DNA of 64,000 bases, taken from the NCBI RefSeq assembly GCF_013122565.1, contig NZ_CP053258.1. The stretch is one strand, 5' to 3'. The notes under the pieces were generated by a model. The model saw nothing but the letters and a program-made list of their open reading frames with translations. It ran no database searches and had not been told where the DNA came from. The position numbers and the translations under genes were made by a program. This stretch comes from Escherichia coli (lineage in GTDB: Bacteria; Pseudomonadota; Gammaproteobacteria; Enterobacterales; Enterobacteriaceae). Shown piece by piece: positions 11,001 through 53,652 of this stretch (position 1 is the stretch's first letter; each line of letters starts with the position of its first letter).

Positions 11001-11329
11001 TGGGACCCCCTTTTGATTTCTTGTTTGACACTTGCAGTTGCCAGACCGCAAGGTGTTTTAACAAATCAAAAGGGGTTTTAATAACTGGCTCAAAGCTGAA
11101 AGCTTTCCGGAACCCCCAGTCTAGCTGGGGGTTTTCTGTGCACAAGAAGAGCCCGTACGAAAGTACGGGCTTTTTTTTCGTATATTGCACACACCGGGTG
11201 CCCCCGCCCACGTCTGTTAGGGCGAGGGGAAATCGTACACATCAACTGTCTGATTGCTCAGTCAACAATCAAAATGCGCAAGAGAGTACAGAACATATAT
11301 GCGCTATCTGGTCACTTCCTGTAACTTCC

Positions 11330-27758: not shown

Positions 27759-27846
27759 TATCTTCTCAAACTAAATAAAGACAGCAGCAACCCCTGCGTG
27801 ACATGACGCATTAATATTAAATGCCACTGCTGTCTTTGGTTACATC

Positions 27847-30800
27847 TTACATGCCGACAATAGTACCGGTGTTGTCAGTTTCGTTTGCTTCTAACGCTAA
27901 ACCGTAGAAGCCACCGAGAACAGCGTCTTTACCGCTATTCGTAACCTTATTTGCCGATACGCCAGCGACACCATAACTCAGCATATTGAGGTAGTTATAA
28001 ATATTACCGGTGGTTTTAACACCCAGAGAATAATCACCCACAATATTTCCACGGTTATTAATGTCATTCACGGCATTGATCGCGATGGTTTGTCCCAACA
28101 TATTACTGTTGCTGTTGTTGGTAACATACTTCTGCGTATCAATAGTCAGCGCAGTTCCCGCCACAATGTCTTTAAAGTTCTCAACACCGTTCAGGGCATT
28201 AATGGTCAGCGCGTTGTCCGCTGCGATGGCATTACGGTTATACAGCGTGCCTTTCAGAACATTGAAATGCACATCCCCTTTACCGCTGATCCAACCATAG
28301 TTAGTGACGCTGTTATCAACGTTCAGATCTAGGTTTTTGTCAGACGCAATCACGCCCGTGGCGGTATTGTCTTCCAGACGACCATCACTGGCGTTACTCA
28401 ACGACGCCGCATAAACATCGAGATTACCGGCGCTGTAAGTGGTGGCATAGTTGTTGTAGAACATACCAGCCGCACGGATGATGGCATCAGCCCCACTGCT
28501 AAGAAGCGCGCGGGTATTATCCAGCGTTCCCCTGGACAGCAGATTAAGCGGACCATTTTCAGCGATGATGCTGCTGTTATTGTTGTAGACGTTCTGAGCA
28601 GAAAGCGTGACACCTTCTTTACCCACAATGCCACCAACGTTGTCAGTAATACCGAAAACTTCACCGTTATAACGCAGGAAGTTATTCCCGTCGCGGTTTT
28701 CGAGGTTGCCGCCAGCGTTAATAACCAGCTTTTTATTCGCCGCGATCAGCGCAGTGTTGTTGTAAATCGTCGATTTAGCATCGACAGAAACATTCTCACC
28801 GGCAATCAAACCATAGGCGTTGTCTACAATGTTCGCCGTCAGAGTCACGTCGCCCGTTTCAGAGGTCAGCGAGCCCTTAAAACTGTCGTAGTTGCCCGTC
28901 AGTGCCAGCGTGACGTCGTCATAACCACGAATTTCACCGTAGTCGTTGTTCAGATTGCTGCCTTTTACAGACAACACGCCGTTCAACGCATGCAGCTTAC
29001 CGCGGTTGTTACCCACGTTGCCCTTCGAATCGATAATCAGATCGCCTGTCGCTTCGATGGTCGCGTTATTGTTGGCCACGCTATTTGCCGTTAATGCGAC
29101 ATCCCCATAACCCACCATATAGAGATAGTTATACAGGTTGCCTTTGGTTGTCACGTTCAGGTCAACATCACTGACAATGTTGCCACGGTTGTTGATATCG
29201 TTAACCGCGTTAATAACGATATTCTGCCCCACCATATTGCTGTTGGAGTTGTTGGTCACATGGCGATTGGTGTTCATCGTCAGGTCGCCGCCAGCAGAAA
29301 TATCCTTCCAGTTTTCAATACCGTTCAGTGCTGCAATGTCCAACCCCTTTTCAGCCGCAATAGTATTGCGGTTGTACAGGTTGCCATTTTTCACCGTGAC
29401 ATCAACATCACCTTTACCGCTGATCCAGCCGTAGTTGGTAAGGCTATTCACCACTTCCAGTGACAGATTTTTGTCAGATGCAATGAACCCGGTCGCATTG
29501 TTATCGATCATCGTACCGCTGCTGCTGTTTTGCAGCGTGGTCGCGTCGATATCCAGGTTGCCCGCACTCCAGGTGGTAGCGTAGTTGTTGTAATACGTTC
29601 CGCCAACCTGAATAGATGCATCCGCCCCGCTGATGACCAGAGCTCGCGTGTTGTCGAACGTGTTCTGCGCCTGCAGAGTCAGAGGACCATCCTCAGCGAT
29701 AATACGGCTGTTGTTGTTATAGATGTTCTGCCCGGAAAGCTCGATGCCTTCCTTGCCGACCATTCCACCCGTTTGCTGAGGCATGCCGAAGTACTGACCA
29801 TAAGCATTACCGAAGTTATTGCCATCGCGGTTTTCGATACTGCCGCGCGCATTTATCTTCAGTTTTTTGCTGGCCACGATCAGCGCTGTGTTGTTATTGA
29901 CGCCAGACATCGACTCCATCGTGATGTTCTGCCCCATCATGAAGCCGCCGTGGTTATCCACGGAGTTGGCTAACAGGGAGATATCACCCTCTTCAGAGCT
30001 GATCACGCCAATATTATTGGTCAGGCTGCCGCCAACGGCGACTTCAATACCCTGCTTACCGCTGATCCCCCCGGTATCGTTACGCAGAGAGCTTCCCTTG
30101 ATAATCACTTTGCTGTTGGACAGAATTTTGCCCGCATAGTCGTCGATCGTGCTGTAACTTGACAGGGAGACGTTGCCATTAGACGCAATCTGTCCGCCAT
30201 TGTTATTGATGTTGTTCGCACCAATTTCTACGCCGGTATCTGCAATAATGCCCAGAGAGTCAGAACTGCCGGTATCGGCGGTTTTGGTTGAACCATTATT
30301 TACGCTACCTGCCGCACCAATAACGATATGCCCGGTGGACGAACGGATCAGACCTTTGTTGTTATCCACATTACCGTTACTGATAATGGCGATATCGCCA
30401 GTGGTCTGGATATCACCGCTGTTGTTATTCAACGCGCCTGATTCAAGCCCCACATAACCGCCGCGAATCTGACCATTGCTGTTGTTGAGCGTTCCGGTTT
30501 TCAGCGCCACGAGCCCCGCTTCAATCCCGACAGAACTCCCTTTACCAGAGTTAATCAGCGTGGCGTTATTGGTATCAACCGCCAGCATACCTGCTGCGGC
30601 GAGCTTGCCGTTGGTGTTATCAATCGTGCCACTGTTAACGTAGATATCGCCCATCGTAGAGATGTTACCCGCACGGGTATTCACGATAGTATTCTTGTTG
30701 GTATTAAGCGAGATAGTGCCTACAGATGTCACCGTACCGGTGGTGTTATCCAGAGTACCATTTGTTGTCAGGTTGATCGTGCTTGCAGACTGAATCTGGG

Positions 30801-31659
30801 CGTTACTGTTTAACAGGTTACCTTTGGAATCGATGCTGACACCATTAACCCCCCCAGCAATAACGCCGAGGTTGCGAACCCCCACACCTTTCTCGGTGCT
30901 GACCAGACTGATTTTGTTCGCATACATTCCGCCCAGTTTGGCAACATCTACGCTGTAACCGTTACGGGACCCCGTGGCGGATACGCTACCGGTCACCTGG
31001 CCTGCGGCATTAACATAGTTATTGCCAGCAACAACGTTCAGCTCATCGGCAGACACTTTGCCGTTAACTACCACGTTACGGGACAGAATTTCTGTCGGGC
31101 TGGCGTTATCCAGTTTACCGAGCGTAATGGTACCGCCGTTCACGGAGTAACCGGCCAGCTTGTCATCCTGGATATCCGGCGTCCCGGTGGTTAAGGTAAG
31201 TTTACCTGTATTGATTGAACCGCCACCGTTTACAGTAATACCATTCGGGTTGGCAATAATCAGATCCGCTTTATCCCCTGCAACTTCCATCATCCCATTA
31301 ATGGTTGAAGGATTTTTGGAAGTAACCTCATTCAGGATCACCTTCGCCGACCCGGAGGTCAGATTACTGTTTCCCTGAATATTTCCGGCAAGTGAAGTAC
31401 TGGATTCATTAGCGCTGTTATTGAAAACGACACCATTTTTATCAACGTTTAGGTTATCCCAGATATTATGAGATAAACCGCTACCGTTAGGTTTGTTGAT
31501 GTCAACGACTGGCACACCATTGGCGTTATATACCGTTCCATTTTTTATGACTAATCCCGCCGCTTGAGAAGCTACAGGAAAAGACAACATCATAAGTATA
31601 GCAATAGGGGTTAATGCTTTACCCACCGTTGCTTCCTTACTTAAATTTATCATCGCCAC
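27847..31659 (-). CDS. TpsA exoprotein (filamentous haemagglutinin/haemolysin-like), 1270 aa, with internal tandem duplication
   Basis: N-terminal TPS domain with ANPNGI motif; Asn/Gly/Thr-rich beta-helix repeats; no recognisable C-terminal toxin domain. Confidence 0.85.
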   Translation of the reverse strand: MAMINLSKEATVGKALTPIAILMMLSFPVASQAAGLVIKNGTVYNANGVPVVDINKPNGSGLSHNIWDNLNVDKNGVVFNNSANESSTSLAGNIQGNSNLTSGSAKVILNEVTSKNPSTINGMMEVAGDKADLIIANPNGITVNGGGSINTGKLTLTTGTPDIQDDKLAGYSVNGGTITLGKLDNASPTEILSRNVVVNGKVSADELNVVAGNNYVNAAGQVTGSVSATGSRNGYSVDVAKLGGMYANKISLVSTEKGVGVRNLGVIAGGVNGVSIDSKGNLLNSNAQIQSASTINLTTNGTLDNTTGTVTSVGTISLNTNKNTIVNTRAGNISTMGDIYVNSGTIDNTNGKLAAAGMLAVDTNNATLINSGKGSSVGIEAGLVALKTGTLNNSNGQIRGGYVGLESGALNNNSGDIQTTGDIAIISNGNVDNNKGLIRSSTGHIVIGAAGSVNNGSTKTADTGSSDSLGIIADTGVEIGANNINNNGGQIASNGNVSLSSYSTIDDYAGKILSNSKVIIKGSSLRNDTGGISGKQGIEVAVGGSLTNNIGVISSEEGDISLLANSVDNHGGFMMGQNITMESMSGVNNNTALIVASKKLKINARGSIENRDGNNFGNAYGQYFGMPQQTGGMVGKEGIELSGQNIYNNNSRIIAEDGPLTLQAQNTFDNTRALVISGADASIQVGGTYYNNYATTWSAGNLDIDATTLQNSSSGTMIDNNATGFIASDKNLSLEVVNSLTNYGWISGKGDVDVTVKNGNLYNRNTIAAEKGLDIAALNGIENWKDISAGGDLTMNTNRHVTNNSNSNMVGQNIVINAVNDINNRGNIVSDVDLNVTTKGNLYNYLYMVGYGDVALTANSVANNNATIEATGDLIIDSKGNVGNNRGKLHALNGVLSVKGSNLNNDYGEIRGYDDVTLALTGNYDSFKGSLTSETGDVTLTANIVDNAYGLIAGENVSVDAKSTIYNNTALIAANKKLVINAGGNLENRDGNNFLRYNGEVFGITDNVGGIVGKEGVTLSAQNVYNNNSSIIAENGPLNLLSRGTLDNTRALLSSGADAIIRAAGMFYNNYATTYSAGNLDVYAASLSNASDGRLEDNTATGVIASDKNLDLNVDNSVTNYGWISGKGDVHFNVLKGTLYNRNAIAADNALTINALNGVENFKDIVAGTALTIDTQKYVTNNSNSNMLGQTIAINAVNDINNRGNIVGDYSLGVKTTGNIYNYLNMLSYGVAGVSANKVTNSGKDAVLGGFYGLALEANETDNTGTIVGM
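27972..30240. repeat. Two tandem ~1134-bp repeat units inside tpsA (approximate bounds)
   Basis: Antisense ORFs at 28061-28300 and 29138-29434 end in the same SPLPLIQP peptide 1134 bp apart; corresponding TpsA segments (~370 aa each) align with high identity. Confidence 0.7.
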
Positions 31660-31922
31660 TAACGTTTTCCTTATTGATGCTATTCATTTTGGACATGCAG
31701 ATCACTTTTGATGACTCACGGAATATCAGCAAAAATGATTGCGGCAAATCCTATCACCTGGCGCAATAAAAAATCACGAAAAATAAGCTGAAATAAGGAT
31801 TCAAAAAAACAACTAAGAGTTATTGTTTTTTCATCGAACGGCGAAGAACCTAACTTACTAAAACACAATAATTTAAAAGTCCCCCATCCTTGCTCCTTGG
31901 GTGATAAAAAATCCAATTTAGA

Positions 31923-31973
31923 GGATGTCTGAAATGATATGTAGTTTTCTGTACGACATCATTTCAGACATCC
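31923..31973. repeat. Perfect 16-bp inverted repeat ggatgtctgaaatgat / atcatttcagacatcc, 19-nt spacer
   Basis: Read directly; ~265-315 bp upstream of tpsA start within a 1.4-kb AT-rich intergenic region. Confidence 0.9.
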
Positions 31974-33051
31974 GAATAAAACAACAAAGTTGGTGAGTTA
32001 CAATTAATTTAAATCTTATTATTTGATTAACAAAGCATCATCATTACTGCATCTTATTCTCTATATCTTTTACGTCGGGGTAGATTCTTTATGGTCATTA
32101 CGGGCAGGCGACATTTCATTATATTACCATTTGCATTCACGCTTGTAACCCTTAAGAGTTATATAAAAAGGAAAGAGTTCTTGCTCATGGTATTACTGAG
32201 ATCGGATTAACCATGAGGTTAGCTATATAGAGAGCTTTGGCTTTGCGACAATTGGCTTAAGCAGCCACATTATGCCTGGCTTATCGTTGAAAGGGAGAAA
32301 GAAGAGCAAAACGGTTTGGCAAGCTTTCATTCCCATCTAATAGCAATCACCGCTATACATCATCCCTTAACGTATTCTGGTCTTCATAAAAATGTTATTC
32401 TAAATTAAAGATTGTAATGATTTTAATAATGTTGTTATTATTTTGCAACAAATCAATATAACACAATGATTATTCGCGATTTTTTATTAGTTAAGAGGAA
32501 TTGTTTTTACAGATTGCGCTACAATTCCGCTCATTTCTCACCACAGGAAAAGCTGAAGTAATCTTAAATGACTGTATTAACCCTTTTCTCCGCTGCCAGC
32601 ACTCTTAAATATCGTTGTTTTATTCTTATAAAAACGGCTTTTTTGACATAAAAAGTAATAGGTTCAGCCATTATGCAGAATTTACAACCTGAGAAAATCG
32701 CAAAAAACACTCTTATTCAGAATAAAACTCTGTTTATCATCTTTCGGTAAGCATTAAATTACTATATTACCGTTCAACATGAGTATGAATGAAAATTCAG
32801 TTGTTATACATGTGATGAATGTCATATATTGTGCTCATCGATTGCAGGACATCGCTATTCTTTTAGAGATACAGATATCACGCTGTTACTCTCTAATATA
32901 AAGAACACGCAAAGATTAGTTGTGTTACTGCAGTTGTTATGTCGCATATGGAATGCCCATTGTTACATCTTTAGTAAAAAGCTTTATTCACTTTCAAAAT
33001 TTTTACTCCATGAAGATAGGCTGTTTTGCTGCAAGCAATTGAGTTAGTGCA

Positions 33052-33675
33052 ATGAACAAGAACTTACTAACAAGGGTAATTATCATTTCGGATGATCTAT
33101 ATTACCTTCAGGGATTAAGTGCAAAACTAGGTCACCATTATCGTTTTTTTATTGAGTGTTTTTTTTGTTCTCAAAATGCATGCAATAATGACCTAAGTAC
33201 ACTTAGATTTGACAACCGCTTTACAAAAAACGTACTTCTTGTCGCAGTGGATGACGTAAGTATACTTGCAAAACTGCCAGATTTGGCCAGGTTTTTAATG
33301 ATTGTTTCACTAAGAAAGATGAAAAACAGAAATATCTTCTTTTCACTTTCAGAGCAAACATTCATTAGCCGATATATAAAATTGAATAAACTCATTACTT
33401 TGATTAAAAGTACTGATAAAGACCAGCAAGTCAGGCAGGTGACTCTGACAAGGTATGAGTGGGATATCTATTACTTATTTTTTAAGATAGATAACAAAAG
33501 AATATTGCACACCCTGCTAAAAAAGGATGTCAAGTATATTAGTCACTATAAAATATCAGTTTTTAATAAGTTTGAAATTGCTTGTGATAGTGATGGCTTT
33601 TACATTTTCAAGGCACTTATACAGTTAAGGAGATTTACCCGTTTTAAAAACGTCAGATTGTATCAATTGCATTAA
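33052..33675 (+). CDS. Putative transcriptional regulator (LuxR-type C-terminus, tentative), 207 aa
   Basis: AT-rich ORF directly upstream of fimbrial major subunit; weak LuxR-HTH-like C-terminal segment. Confidence 0.35.
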   Translation: MNKNLLTRVIIISDDLYYLQGLSAKLGHHYRFFIECFFCSQNACNNDLSTLRFDNRFTKNVLLVAVDDVSILAKLPDLARFLMIVSLRKMKNRNIFFSLSEQTFISRYIKLNKLITLIKSTDKDQQVRQVTLTRYEWDIYYLFFKIDNKRILHTLLKKDVKYISHYKISVFNKFEIACDSDGFYIFKALIQLRRFTRFKNVRLYQLH

Positions 33676-52587: not shown

Positions 52588-53652
52588 TTAACTGTATGCA
52601 TGTAGCGTACGTTGGCAAAGTGCCGAACGTACGCAATCCTCTTTACCGAATCGGACGATCCCGACCATTTCATCTTCTTCGAAACGTTCCAGTGCGTCAC
52701 TTAATCCGGAGCGCACGCCGCGAGGTAAATCGCATTGCGTGATATCACCGTTAACGATAACCGTCACGTTCTCCCCGAGGCGGGTTAAAAACATTTTCAT
52801 TTGCGCGGCAGTCACATTCTGCGCCTCGTCAAGAATGACAACTGCATTTTCAAAGGTACGTCCACGCATATAGGCGAACGGCGCAATTTCCACCTTCCCT
52901 ATTTCCGGTCGCAGGCAGTACTGCATAAAGGAAGCCCCTAAGCGCCGGACCAGCACGTCGTATACCGGGCGAAAATAGGGAGCAAACTTTTCTGCGATAT
53001 CTCCAGGTAAGAAGCCAAGATCTTCATCGGCTTGCAGAACTGGACGGGTGACGATAATCCTGTCGACATCCTTATGTATCAGGGCCTCTGCCGCTTTTGC
53101 TGCGCTGATCCAGGTTTTTCCGCACCCGGCTTCGCCCGTAGCGAATATCAGCTGCTTACTCTCAATAGCCTTCAGATAGTGCAATTGCGCTTCATTTCGC
53201 GCGAGGATGGGCGAAGTATCGCGACTGTCGCGGGCCATACCAATGGCTTCTACGCCGCTCATCTGCACAAGCGAGGTGACCGATTCTTCTTCACGCTGCT
53301 TATGGCTGCGCGAATCCCGTCTCAGCACACGTTTTGCCTCGCGACGAGCTTTGATCACTGCTTTTTGTCTTCCCATGGAGAGCACCTTGAGTTGTTTGTA
53401 TTCATCACACGCGCCGTTGGCAGCGCGATTATGCGCACGAACATCAGAGGGTTGGCTTCCTTGTAAGCCATAGTTTGCTTTTGGATAAAATGCCGAAAAA
53501 CGGCTACGCGCACCGTTTACGGCGTCGGTAACACATGAAAAGAAAGGATGAGGTTGAAAATGCAAAGTGACGAGATGACTACCGGAGGAGAAAACTCCGC
53601 GAGTGGTGGCGCGTTGATTATCTAAAACATGTCCAGTACAGGACGTTACCAT
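52588..53652 (-). CDS. phoH: PhoH, phosphate-starvation-inducible ATPase
   Basis: 354 aa; Walker A GEAGCGKT; PhoH-like domain. Confidence 0.9.
   Translation of the reverse strand: MVTSCTGHVLDNQRATTRGVFSSGSHLVTLHFQPHPFFSCVTDAVNGARSRFSAFYPKANYGLQGSQPSDVRAHNRAANGACDEYKQLKVLSMGRQKAVIKARREAKRVLRRDSRSHKQREEESVTSLVQMSGVEAIGMARDSRDTSPILARNEAQLHYLKAIESKQLIFATGEAGCGKTWISAAKAAEALIHKDVDRIIVTRPVLQADEDLGFLPGDIAEKFAPYFRPVYDVLVRRLGASFMQYCLRPEIGKVEIAPFAYMRGRTFENAVVILDEAQNVTAAQMKMFLTRLGENVTVIVNGDITQCDLPRGVRSGLSDALERFEEDEMVGIVRFGKEDCVRSALCQRTLHAYS

What the first reader, a model, noticed from the sequence alone, without database searches (positions are those of the whole stretch)
31660..33051. 1.4-kb AT-rich divergent control region containing a perfect 16-bp inverted repeat
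There is no credible ORF between tpsA and the fimbrial regulator gene. The region is strongly AT-rich (typical of xenogeneic silencing targets) and carries a perfect inverted repeat (31923-31938 / 31958-31973) roughly 270-310 bp upstream of tpsA. It is a candidate operator, RNA structure or site-specific recombination site controlling the 20-kb array and/or the fimbrial operon.
Basis: seen in the sequence. Interest (0 to 1): 0.45.

Follow-up and report, generated by a model that had tools for sequence, protein, structure and literature searches.

The report
Conserved stem-loop upstream of otpA
The inverted repeat is real: it is a single-copy hairpin-forming element kept at the same spot upstream of the otpAB secretion operon in E. 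coli island OI-47 and in a related island of a second enterobacterial species, so it is probably a small uncharacterised control element, though its mechanism is not shown.

Summary
The window is E. coli genomic island OI-47 (Sakai S-loop 71). The 1,392-bp gap lies between otpA (TpsA; ECs1282) and an orphan 207-aa gene (ECs1281) that heads the loc6 fimbrial operon. It is non-coding as far as I can tell and AT-rich (30-39% GC against about 50% in the flanks).

The 16-bp inverted repeat is exactly where stated. No arm of 16 bp or more arose in 2,000 simulations. It occurs once per genome, in 380 of 5,426 complete E. coli genomes.

It is perfect only in some alleles. O157:H7 has a single-sided change. 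A divergent E. coli clade has two stem pairs changed on both sides (G-C to A-T).

A syntenic island in a second species (genes 79-84% identical) has an otherwise almost unalignable spacer. It keeps the hairpin at the same distance from otpA, with identical 9-bp inner arms and the same 19-nt spacer length. The spacer sequence differs but is again self-complementary.

All four single-sided substitutions give G·U on the otpA-sense strand. I favour a cis-acting RNA stem-loop on that strand (about 0.4) over a DNA palindrome or operator (about 0.25). No transcript, terminator, recombinase, inversion or Rfam family supports a more specific claim. Interest is modest.

The parts
31923..31973 (-). Stem-loop element. 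It has a 16-bp stem in this strain, a 19-nt spacer that itself forms a 3-5 bp apical helix, and an 8-nt terminal loop. The strand is given as otpA-sense because that strand is favoured, not proven.
   Evidence: existence, energy, chance; pair counts; conservation in a second species.
31930..31938 (.). Left inner arm TGAAATGAT, part of the sequence-invariant core.
   Evidence: Invariant in 15 E. coli alleles and identical in species-2 loci L124-L127, L129-L133 and L135-L138.
31958..31966 (.). Right inner arm ATCATTTCA, part of the sequence-invariant core.
   Evidence: Same calls as the left inner arm.
31941..31954 (.). Apical helix (31941-31943 pairs with 31952-31954) around an 8-nt loop.
   Evidence: Predicted. 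In species 2 the spacer sequence differs but again pairs (GUGUG/CACAC), with one pair changed A-U to G-C. Allele L132 has G·U here on the otpA-sense strand.
31923..31929 (.). Outer 7 bp of the stem, paired with 31967-31973. This extension is specific to E. coli and evolves fast. It holds all stem polymorphism within E. coli.
   Evidence: The outer pairs are not conserved in species 2.
31860..31909 (.). Hypervariable stretch between the hairpin and the otpA-proximal block. It includes a variable C/G run and a 1-nt A insertion unique to this strain.
   Evidence: 15 variable columns per 50; alignments; unalignable with species 2.
31660..31800 (-). Conserved otpA-proximal block, the presumed otpA promoter and 5' leader. 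It includes an invariant TTATTTTTCGTGATTTTTTATTG and a candidate extended -10, TGaTAGGAT (hexamer 31753-31748).
   Evidence: 1-5 variable columns per 50 within E. coli. 76% identity to species 2 over the first 170 nt, while the rest of the gap does not align. The promoter assignment is inference only.
32801..32830 (+). Candidate sigma-70 promoter of the 207-aa gene and loc6 operon: TTGTTA, 18 nt, TATATT.
   Evidence: Found by the consensus scan. Both hexamers are conserved while the spacer varies in three lineages (E. coli, L124, L128). It lies in the most conserved block of the gap.
31974..32037 (-). Partly conserved sequence 5' of the hairpin on the otpA-sense strand (TTTGTTAA..CA.ATAA.. and a U-rich run).
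   Evidence: alignment; the blast segment window 31928-32034 matches species 2 at 67.5%. No conserved promoter could be derived from it.
27847..31659 (-). otpA (TpsA exoprotein, 1270 aa), first gene of the roughly 20-kb leftward array.
   Evidence: It corresponds to ECs_1282 in Sakai. It is named otpAB in bioRxiv 10.1101/2020.04.13.038984 and PMC5422565.
33052..33675 (+). 207-aa orphan gene (ECs_1281 equivalent) heading the loc6 chaperone-usher operon. It is a putative regulator.
   Evidence: The only homologues among 5.8 billion proteins are the syntenic ones at 54-56% identity. There are many invariant columns.

Best explanation
The inverted repeat is a conserved, single-copy, hairpin-forming element that belongs to the divergent otpA / ECs1281-loc6 control region.

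Its functional core is the inner 9-11 bp of the stem (TGAAATGAT / ATCATTTCA) plus a short apical helix and an 8-nt loop. The outer 5-7 bp that make it 'perfect' in this strain are a fast-evolving extension.

Most likely it acts as an RNA stem-loop on the otpA-sense (window minus) strand. That means it sits in a long leader or upstream transcript that runs towards otpA. There it would set the yield of the roughly 20-kb otpAB/fatty-acid-like operon, as a stabilising or processing structure (for example a double-strand RNase site) or as a docking site for a factor.

Shown: the element exists, is non-random, is conserved in position, keeps its arm sequence and keeps its pairing.

Inferred: that it is transcribed, which strand matters, and what it does.
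For: 1. Non-random: no arm of 16 or more in 2,000 simulations, z about -5 to -8.

2. Pairing is maintained.
- Within E. coli, two stem pairs changed on both sides (G-C to A-U) in the divergent clade. The inner 11 bp are invariant.
- With species 2 added: 96.2% of cells paired, 3 pairs changed on both sides, and 0 of 500 shuffles reach the observed covariation score. Slid controls give 26-46% paired.

3. A syntenic island in another enterobacterial species has otpA 84%, otpB 79% and usher 79.5% nucleotide identity, and lysS 89% identical to E. coli. Its 1,293-nt gap aligns with the window's only at three places: the 170 nt next to otpA, a 59-nt block at the regulator promoter, and the hairpin. 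The hairpin starts 268 nt into that gap, against 264 nt for the full E. coli stem (271 nt for the matching inner arm). Its 9-bp arms are identical and its spacer is also 19 nt. The spacer has a different sequence that is again self-complementary.

4. Strand: all four single-sided substitutions seen are G·U on the otpA-sense strand and A·C on the other. These are in O157 pair 4, O145 pair 5, L097 pair 1 and species-2 allele L132 in the apical helix. Paired cells are 99.1% on minus against 96.5% on plus. Minus-strand stability stays at -22 to -29 kcal/mol in all E. coli alleles.

5. Sequence on the 5' side (otpA sense) is partly conserved, while the 3' side is hypervariable.
Against: - No transcript is known to cover it. 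EDL933 Cappable-seq supplements, which are partly truncated as held, list no start site in the gap and only an internal otpA start 72 nt inside the gene. There is no Hfq-bound RNA in the held Sakai tables.
- I found no promoter upstream of the hairpin on the otpA-sense strand that is conserved between the two species. The best-conserved candidate otpA promoter lies downstream of the hairpin, which would leave it untranscribed.
- The strand signal is weak: 4 of 4 gives two-sided p = 0.125, and I chose the strand after seeing the first cases.
- One E. coli haplotype (L006/L094) has a true mismatch on both strands.
- Double changes in a DNA palindrome can also arise by replication template-switching, without selection on RNA.
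- There is no Rfam match.
- There is no counterpart upstream of otpA orthologues in other genera.
Confidence: 0.4

Rival explanations
1. It is a DNA-level element: a palindromic operator or cruciform-prone site about 180-230 bp upstream of the real otpA promoter. It would be bound by an island regulator (the orphan 207-aa protein or the ToxR-like GrvA) or by a nucleoid protein, to counter or nucleate silencing of the AT-rich region.
For: - The arm sequence is 100% conserved (9+9 bp) and the spacer length is fixed at 19, while the surroundings are unalignable. That is the classic signature of a binding site.
- The element co-occurs strictly with the orphan 207-aa gene: the same 380 E. coli genomes, plus species 2. 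It is absent upstream of otpA orthologues that lack that gene.
- The best-conserved promoter-like sequence for otpA lies downstream of the hairpin.
- No start site is reported in the gap.
- From established knowledge, not tested here: in Bordetella, BvgA activates the TpsA gene fhaB from an upstream inverted repeat.
Against: - A homodimer operator predicts conserved half-sites. It does not predict symmetric covariation in positions that do vary, nor a spacer that stays self-complementary with a different sequence.
- The centre-to-centre distance of the conserved arms is 28 bp, about 2.7 helical turns, which is unusual for a dimer.
- No further copies of the arm motif mark other promoters of the island in either species.
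- The G·U bias on one strand has no explanation at the DNA level.
Confidence: 0.25
2. It marks the 3' end of an unannotated short transcript on the otpA-sense strand (a small RNA), or it is an insulator that stops upstream or spurious transcription from running into otpA.
For: - Conserved sequence lies only on the 5' side of the hairpin on that strand.
- U-rich sequence follows it in both species: GGAUUUUUU 12 nt downstream in E. coli and CUGUUUUGU in species 2.
- There is the same strand-specific G·U pattern.
Against: - It fails the intrinsic-terminator scan: no U run directly after the stem, and the stem is AT-rich.
- The held Sakai Hfq table reports no bound RNA here, the EDL933 table reports no start site in the gap, and the Sakai ribosome-profiling supplements report no novel small gene here.
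- No promoter is conserved between the two species.
Confidence: 0.15
3. It is a functionless quasi-palindrome. It would have been created, and kept symmetric, by replication template-switching between the arms, a known mutational mechanism in E. coli, in fast-evolving AT-rich spacer DNA.
For: - All E. coli stem polymorphism is in the outer pairs.
- The hairpin as a whole is no more conserved than the gap: 8 variable columns in 51, against about 7 per 50.
- Template-switching would produce 'compensatory' double changes without selection. This point rests on established knowledge, not on a test here.
Against: It cannot explain several things between species whose spacer is otherwise unalignable: the identity of 18 of 18 inner-arm bases, the unchanged position, and the unchanged spacer length. 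It also cannot explain invariance of the inner 11 bp across E. coli clades that differ by 9% in the gap.
Confidence: 0.1
4. It is a site-specific recombination site, an invertible-switch boundary, or a remnant of a mobile element (MITE or IS ends).
For: It has a long perfect inverted repeat and lies next to a fimbrial operon, a class of operon that often has invertible promoters. Other imperfect long-range inverted repeats exist in the gap.
Against: - It is single-copy in every genome.
- There is no recombinase or transposase in the island.
- The gap is colinear, with no inverted segment, in all listed matches, and at least 80% is covered in 380 of 380 genomes.
- A metagenome scan found the arms only in this locus, plus unrelated chance hairpins.
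- A 19-nt spacer is too short to carry a promoter.
Confidence: 0.03
5. On the + strand, a 20-codon ORF (31934-31996, MICSFLYDIISDIRIKQQSW) has its Shine-Dalgarno sequence and start codon buried in the left arm. The hairpin would control its translation.
For: An AGAGGA sequence sits 8 nt before the ATG. The two right-arm changes in the divergent clade are synonymous in this frame (my reading).
Against: - The Shine-Dalgarno sequence is destroyed in the divergent E. coli clade (AGCGAA) and is absent in species 2. The peptide is not conserved in species 2.
- No ribosome-profiling gene is reported here in Sakai.
- The G·U pattern points to the other strand.
Confidence: 0.03

Closest known systems
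cis-acting 5'-leader stem-loops of E. coli mRNAs (for example the RNase III-cleaved leader hairpins of pnp and rnc, or stabilising 5' hairpins such as that of ompA). Recalled from knowledge, not tested.
   Same: It is a long, near-perfect helix of about 16-21 bp upstream of a coding region. Pairing is maintained by compensatory and G·U changes on the sense strand.
   Different: No transcript has been shown to contain it. It lies 264 nt or more from the start codon. It has no sequence or Rfam relationship to any known leader. It is restricted to one island type.
BvgA-dependent upstream inverted repeat of the Bordetella fhaB (TpsA) promoter, and palindromic operators of LuxR/NarL-type regulators in general. 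Recalled from knowledge.
   Same: It is an inverted repeat upstream of a two-partner-secretion exoprotein gene. A roughly 207-aa putative receiver/HTH-like protein is encoded next to it. The arm sequence is conserved.
   Different: The arms are 19 bp apart, not adjacent heptads. Variable positions covary symmetrically and the spacer is self-complementary. The neighbouring protein cannot be assigned to the LuxR/NarL family by any search run here.
Rho-independent terminators and 3' hairpins of small RNAs.
   Same: It is a stable hairpin with U-rich sequence downstream on the favoured strand.
   Different: There is no U tract directly after the stem, the stem is AT-rich and the loop region is large. 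It fails the scan.
fimS-type invertible fimbrial promoter switches.
   Same: It is an inverted repeat in the control region of a chaperone-usher fimbrial operon.
   Different: Only 19 nt lie between the arms, there is no recombinase, and no inverted alleles are seen among 380 genomes.

Membership tests
Intrinsic (Rho-independent) terminator | A G+C-rich stem with a short loop, followed immediately by a U tract | tested here: not met
   The scan found 0 terminator-like sites in 31400-33300. The stem has 5 G-C pairs of 16. The first 8 nt after the stem hold 4 U on the minus strand and 1 on the plus strand.
Any described RNA family (Rfam 15) | A match at or above the family's gathering score | tested here: not met
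   The best hits over the hairpin are eukaryotic miRNA or snoRNA models at 17-26 bits, against thresholds of 50 or more. The whole-window gathering search finds only STnc490 and Ysr251, both elsewhere.
Structured cis-regulatory RNA (generic) | Base pairs maintained through compensatory change in related sequences | tested here: met
   3 pairs changed on both sides, 96.2% of cells paired, 0 of 500 shuffles reach the score, and slid controls give 26-46%. Caveat: there are only 7 haplotypes from 2 species, and palindromic DNA can covary through template-switching.
Structured cis-regulatory RNA (generic) | The element is transcribed on the proposed strand | not testable with these tools
   The only published start-site and Hfq tables available are partly truncated, and none lists an RNA here.
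Invertible promoter switch / site-specific recombination site | A cognate recombinase nearby and both orientations present in populations | tested here: not met
   No recombinase is annotated in the island. Matches are single colinear pieces in all listed genomes, and coverage is at least 80% in 380 of 380.
Dispersed palindromic repeats (REP/BIME, ERIC, MITEs, IS ends) | Multiple copies per genome | tested here: not met
   There is one place per genome in all 380 genomes that have it. There is no other copy in the window with 3 or fewer mismatches apart from one chance-level hit. The metagenome scan found only this locus plus unrelated hairpins.
RfaH ops / JUMPStart leader of long horizontally acquired operons | The ops motif GGCGGTAGnnTG in the leader | tested here: not met
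   No match with 2 or fewer mismatches inside 31660-33051. The window-wide count is at the chance level.
Fur box | At least about 13 of 19 matches to GATAATGATAATCATTATC | tested here: not met
   The hairpin does not score. Matches of 12/19 or better in the region number 6 counted over both strands, against a shuffle mean of 3.7 (maximum 9) counted on one strand only, so there is no enrichment.
LuxR/NarL-type response regulator (the label given to the 207-aa neighbour) | Recognisable receiver and GerE/LuxR HTH domains | tested here: inconclusive
   There is no Pfam, NCBIfam or PDB hit for the single sequence or the profile. The AlphaFold model has pLDDT 37 and is unusable. Only a by-eye resemblance of residues about 131-176 to a LuxR-type HTH remains.
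H-NS-silenced (xenogeneic) AT-rich regulatory region | H-NS occupancy and derepression in an hns mutant | not testable with these tools
   Only the composition is shown: GC 0.30-0.39, and 0.36-0.37 in species 2. No start site appears in the held EDL933 tables.

The most novel reading that the evidence does not exclude
The hairpin and the orphan 207-aa protein form a private regulatory pair. The protein belongs to a family found only in this island type: three lineages among 5.8 billion proteins. It would recognise the conserved TGAAATGAT/ATCATTTCA stem-loop, as RNA or as extruded DNA, and so couple expression of the otpAB/fatty-acid-like operon to that of the loc6 fimbriae. That would be a new regulator-hairpin system with no described relatives.
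Probability: 0.1. Interest if true: 0.55.

Novelty: new member of a known kind. Interest (0 to 1): 0.3.

Why it matters
OI-47 is carried by nearly all E. coli O157:H7 strains. It holds the virulence regulator GrvA, the loc6 fimbriae and the otpAB secretion system, whose function and regulation are unknown and which appears silent in the laboratory.

A conserved, structure-dependent element in the control region gives a concrete, mutable handle for asking how the 20-kb operon is switched on. The accompanying footprints (a candidate promoter for ECs1281/loc6 and a conserved otpA-proximal block) narrow a 1.4-kb unannotated spacer down to three short testable sites.

It is not a new principle. Small conserved hairpins and palindromes in control regions are common.

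Tried and rejected
- **Rfam.** An E-value search of the gap and a gathering search of the window found nothing relevant.
- **Terminator and promoter scan.** No terminator was found. Promoter-like hits were at the chance level overall. One of them was later supported by conservation.
- **Pseudogene of the neighbouring regulator in the gap.** tblastn found nothing.
- **Small ORFs.** They have no family hits, their starts or frames are not conserved, and none is in the Sakai ribosome-profiling supplements.
- **Fur box** and **RfaH ops**: absent.
- **A regulon-like spread of the arm motif** over other island promoters: not seen.
- **Similarity of the gap to plasmids.** Only two mislabelled chromosomal records matched.
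- **Upstream regions of otpA orthologues** in Enterobacter, Kosakonia, Mixta, Rahnella and others. There is no DNA similarity, no comparable inverted repeat, and no covariance-model hit.
- **Metagenome pattern scan.** It found only known E. coli alleles plus unrelated hairpins.
- **Literature.**
  - The OI-47 reviews mention GrvA only, and no small RNA.
  - The Tree 2014 Hfq tables and the EDL933 Cappable-seq tables report nothing in the gap.
  - The original otpAB paper is not held.
- **Structure prediction of the 207-aa protein.** It failed at pLDDT 37, so no fold search was run.
- **An outer 7-bp helix enclosing the hairpin on the + strand**. It is not conserved between alleles.
- **A third protein search with OtpA.** It returned only fragments.
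Full report
**Where we are.** The 1,392-bp region matches 380 of 5,426 complete E. coli genomes, always once and always in full. The closest match is strain PapRG-04-4.

The annotated context is ycdU, a roughly 20-kb leftward array, the gap, a 207-aa hypothetical gene, a chaperone-usher operon, an SDR gene, a ToxR-like gene with a FidL-like gene, an EAL gene, dgcT and pgaABCD. The leftward array holds ACP, ketosynthase and ABC-transporter genes plus a ShlB-family transporter and a TpsA.

This is O-island 47 of O157:H7, also called Sakai S-loop 71:
- The TpsA/TpsB pair is otpAB (ECs1282-1283).
- The fimbrial cluster is loc6 (ECs1276-1280).
- The ToxR-like gene is grvA.

In Sakai the gap is 1348686-1350075. 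In EDL933 (CP008957) it is 1434971-1436360.

The arms are at 31923-31938 and 31958-31973, perfectly complementary, with 19 nt between them.
- No arm of 16 or more arose in 2,000 composition-matched simulations of the gap. P(arm >=12) is already 0.0095.
- Either strand folds to about -30 kcal/mol, with z = -5.4 and -6.2.
- It is the only strong structural outlier in the gap.
- The region is AT-rich (GC 0.30-0.39), and the AT-rich block continues through the 207-aa gene to about 33850.
- No credible ORF exists. None is annotated in any allele. The small ORFs have no family hits, are not paralogues of the regulator, and have unstable starts or frames. None appears in the Sakai ribosome-profiling supplements.

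**Variation within E. coli.** Fifteen alleles spanning 0-9% divergence in the gap give six hairpin haplotypes.
- The inner 11 bp of the stem and most of the loop never vary.
- All stem polymorphism is in the outer five pairs.
- The divergent clade (L007-9, L095-97) has GGATG/CATCC replaced by GAATA/TATTC. That is two pairs changed on both sides.
- O157:H7 (pair 4), O145:H28 (pair 5) and L097 (pair 1) each carry one single-sided transition.
- L006/L094 carry a true mismatch.

So the 'perfect' repeat is a property of this strain and a few others. The great majority of carriers, the O157:H7 strains, have 15 of 16 pairs.

Counted formally, the minus (otpA-sense) strand has 99.1% of cells paired and the plus strand 96.5%. 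The difference arises because the three single-sided changes are G·U on minus and A·C on plus.

**A second species settles that the element is conserved.** The 207-aa protein has only two distant relatives among 5.8 billion proteins, at 56% and 54% identity.

The first relative sits in a syntenic island with the order otpB, otpA, gap, regulator, fimbrial operon, SDR, ToxR-like gene. This island was found in gut-metagenome contigs and several isolate assemblies.
- Its genes are 79-84% identical to the window's.
- A neighbouring lysS is 89% identical to E. coli lysS, so the host is another enterobacterial species.
- Its 1,293-nt gap (GC 0.37) aligns with the window's in only three places: the 170 nt next to otpA (76%), a 59-nt block at window 32794-32852 (75%), and the hairpin area.
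- Its hairpin starts 268 nt into the gap, against 264 nt for the full E. coli stem (271 nt for the matching inner arm).
- It reads TGAAATGAT-gtgtgattccagacacaca-ATCATTTCA. The inner arms are identical, the spacer is also 19 nt, and the unrelated spacer sequence again pairs with itself (GUGUG/CACAC around an 8-nt loop).
- The outer seven E. coli pairs are not kept.

With this sequence added:
- 96.2% of cells pair.
- Three pairs have changes on both sides.
- None of 500 shuffles reaches the covariation score.
- Sliding the partner by 1-3 columns gives 26-46% paired.

Among nine further species-2 contigs that retain this gap (a tenth, L134, lacks the otpA side of the island), one (L132) has a C-to-U change in the apical helix. 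This is again G·U on the otpA-sense strand.

**Distribution.** The element is restricted to this island type.
- It is single-copy.
- A covariance model built from the seven haplotypes finds it only in the window and the species-2 loci. It finds nothing upstream of otpA orthologues (55-76% amino-acid identity) in Enterobacter, Kosakonia, Mixta, Rahnella, Pantoea and others, whose upstream regions are short and unrelated.
- A metagenome scan for the inner arms recovered only known E. coli alleles and unrelated hairpins.
- otpA, the gap and the 207-aa gene occur in exactly the same 380 E. coli genomes.

**What else is in the gap.** Phylogenetic footprinting gives two better-supported control sites.
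1. On the + strand, TTGTTA-18 nt-TATATT (32801-32830) was picked by the consensus scan. Both hexamers are conserved while the spacer varies in three lineages. This is the expected signature of the ECs1281/loc6 promoter and implies a leader of about 215 nt.
2. On the - strand, the 140 nt next to otpA are nearly invariant within E. coli and well conserved in species 2. They include an invariant T-rich 23-mer and TGaTAGGAT, a candidate extended -10 at 31753-31748.

If that second site is the otpA promoter, the hairpin lies about 180-230 bp upstream of the start site. About 800 nt between the hairpin and the ECs1281 promoter are poorly conserved AT-rich spacer.

**Mechanism.** Three facts must be explained together:
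- the arm sequence is conserved;
- pairing is conserved through change, both in the E. coli outer stem and in the apical helix between species;
- position and spacer length are fixed.

Pairing through change argues for a nucleic-acid hairpin rather than a plain duplex operator. The four-out-of-four G·U pattern points to RNA of the otpA-sense strand. That signal is weak (two-sided p = 0.125), and the strand was chosen after the first cases were seen.

I therefore favour a cis-acting RNA stem-loop in a leader or upstream transcript running towards otpA (0.4).

The main rival is a DNA palindrome bound by an island regulator or nucleoid protein (0.25). Three things favour it: no transcript is known, no promoter upstream of the hairpin is conserved, and the element co-occurs strictly with the orphan regulator.

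The other rivals rank as follows:
- A 3'-terminal hairpin of an unannotated short RNA, or an insulator, is possible (0.15). The element is not a canonical terminator.
- A purely neutral quasi-palindrome homogenised by template-switching (0.1) would explain the covariation. It would not explain 18 of 18 identical arm bases and an unchanged position in an otherwise unalignable spacer.
- Recombination or invertible-switch readings, and a 20-codon ORF on the + strand, are essentially excluded (0.03 each).

**Experimental record.** The held supplements of an EDL933 Cappable-seq study list no start site in the gap and only an internal otpA start 72 nt inside the gene, in a minority of the conditions tabulated. 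The Sakai Hfq-crosslinking tables list nothing here. These files are partly truncated as stored, so absence is weak evidence. It fits a locus that is silent in the laboratory. H-NS binding was not testable.

**The neighbouring 'regulator'.** The 207-aa protein is real. Many columns are invariant across three lineages at 53-55% identity. No sequence or profile search assigns it to a family, and its AlphaFold model is unusable. The label 'LuxR-like' is only a visual impression.

**Verdict.** The element is a real, conserved, lineage-restricted stem-loop of unknown mechanism. It is a new member of a familiar kind, and of modest interest.

Noticed in passing
window 33052-33675; proteins P0004, P0005; loci L124-L138: The 207-aa gene heading the loc6 operon belongs to an extremely narrow orphan family. 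Among 5.8 billion proteins there are only the E. coli cluster and two lineages at 54-56% identity, all in the same synteny. No Pfam, NCBIfam or PDB relative was found, and AlphaFold gives pLDDT 37.
   Followed up: partly
L129-L138, positions about 7741-7879 in locus coordinates: In the second species, the island's end beyond the YqeJ/FidL-like gene abuts different neighbours in different assemblies: ygeR/lysS-side genes, a PTS/sugar cluster, or phage-type integrases with phage genes. This suggests an integration hot spot or a mobile island. In L134 the usher-to-otpA part is replaced by unrelated genes.
   Followed up: no
window 7580-7621: This is the longest short-range perfect inverted repeat in the window: 19-bp G+C-rich arms with a 4-nt loop. 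It starts 19 nt after the stop of the 616-aa ORF at 5711-7561 and is probably its terminator.
   Followed up: no
window 27777-27837: An 11-bp perfect inverted repeat with a 39-nt spacer lies inside the 88-nt gap between otpA and otpB.
   Followed up: no
window 11010-11133 (-) and 52593-52786 (+): These are the only Rfam matches above gathering score: STnc490, an Hfq-binding small RNA (140.8 bits), and Ysr251, an antisense RNA (188.5 bits) that overlaps the 5'-proximal coding part of the minus-strand phoH gene (52588-53652).
   Followed up: no
window 31880-31892 and 31905: A C/G run just downstream of the hairpin on the otpA-sense strand varies between alleles: C5AUCC, C4AC4, and a run of about 8 C in L007. 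This strain alone has one extra A in the A run at about 31905. On the minus strand the run overlaps a mini-ORF (AAGGAG-N5-ATG GGG GAC TTT TAA) that is not conserved.
   Followed up: partly
L008 (E. coli YZMc3-1), equivalent of window 33052-33675: The 207-aa gene is annotated as a frameshifted pseudogene in this strain. Some carriers may therefore have lost it while keeping the gap and hairpin.
   Followed up: no
window 41292-42600; L129 7879-9181: The GrvA/FidL-like pair has Pfam Trans_reg_C plus YqeJ_C/FidL_like hits in the species-2 copies. It therefore resembles the K-12 yqeI-yqeJ pair. The two genes overlap by 8 nt in species 2.
   Followed up: no
window 31660-33051 compared with its flanks: Across the 380 genomes the gap diverges to 90.6% identity. 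The adjacent 1 kb of otpA stays at 97.2% or above among the listed hits (at least 95% in all 380 genomes), and the 207-aa gene plus fimA at 95% or above. Alleles such as L005 look mosaic (window-like on the left, divergent-clade-like on the right), which suggests recombination inside the gap.
   Followed up: partly
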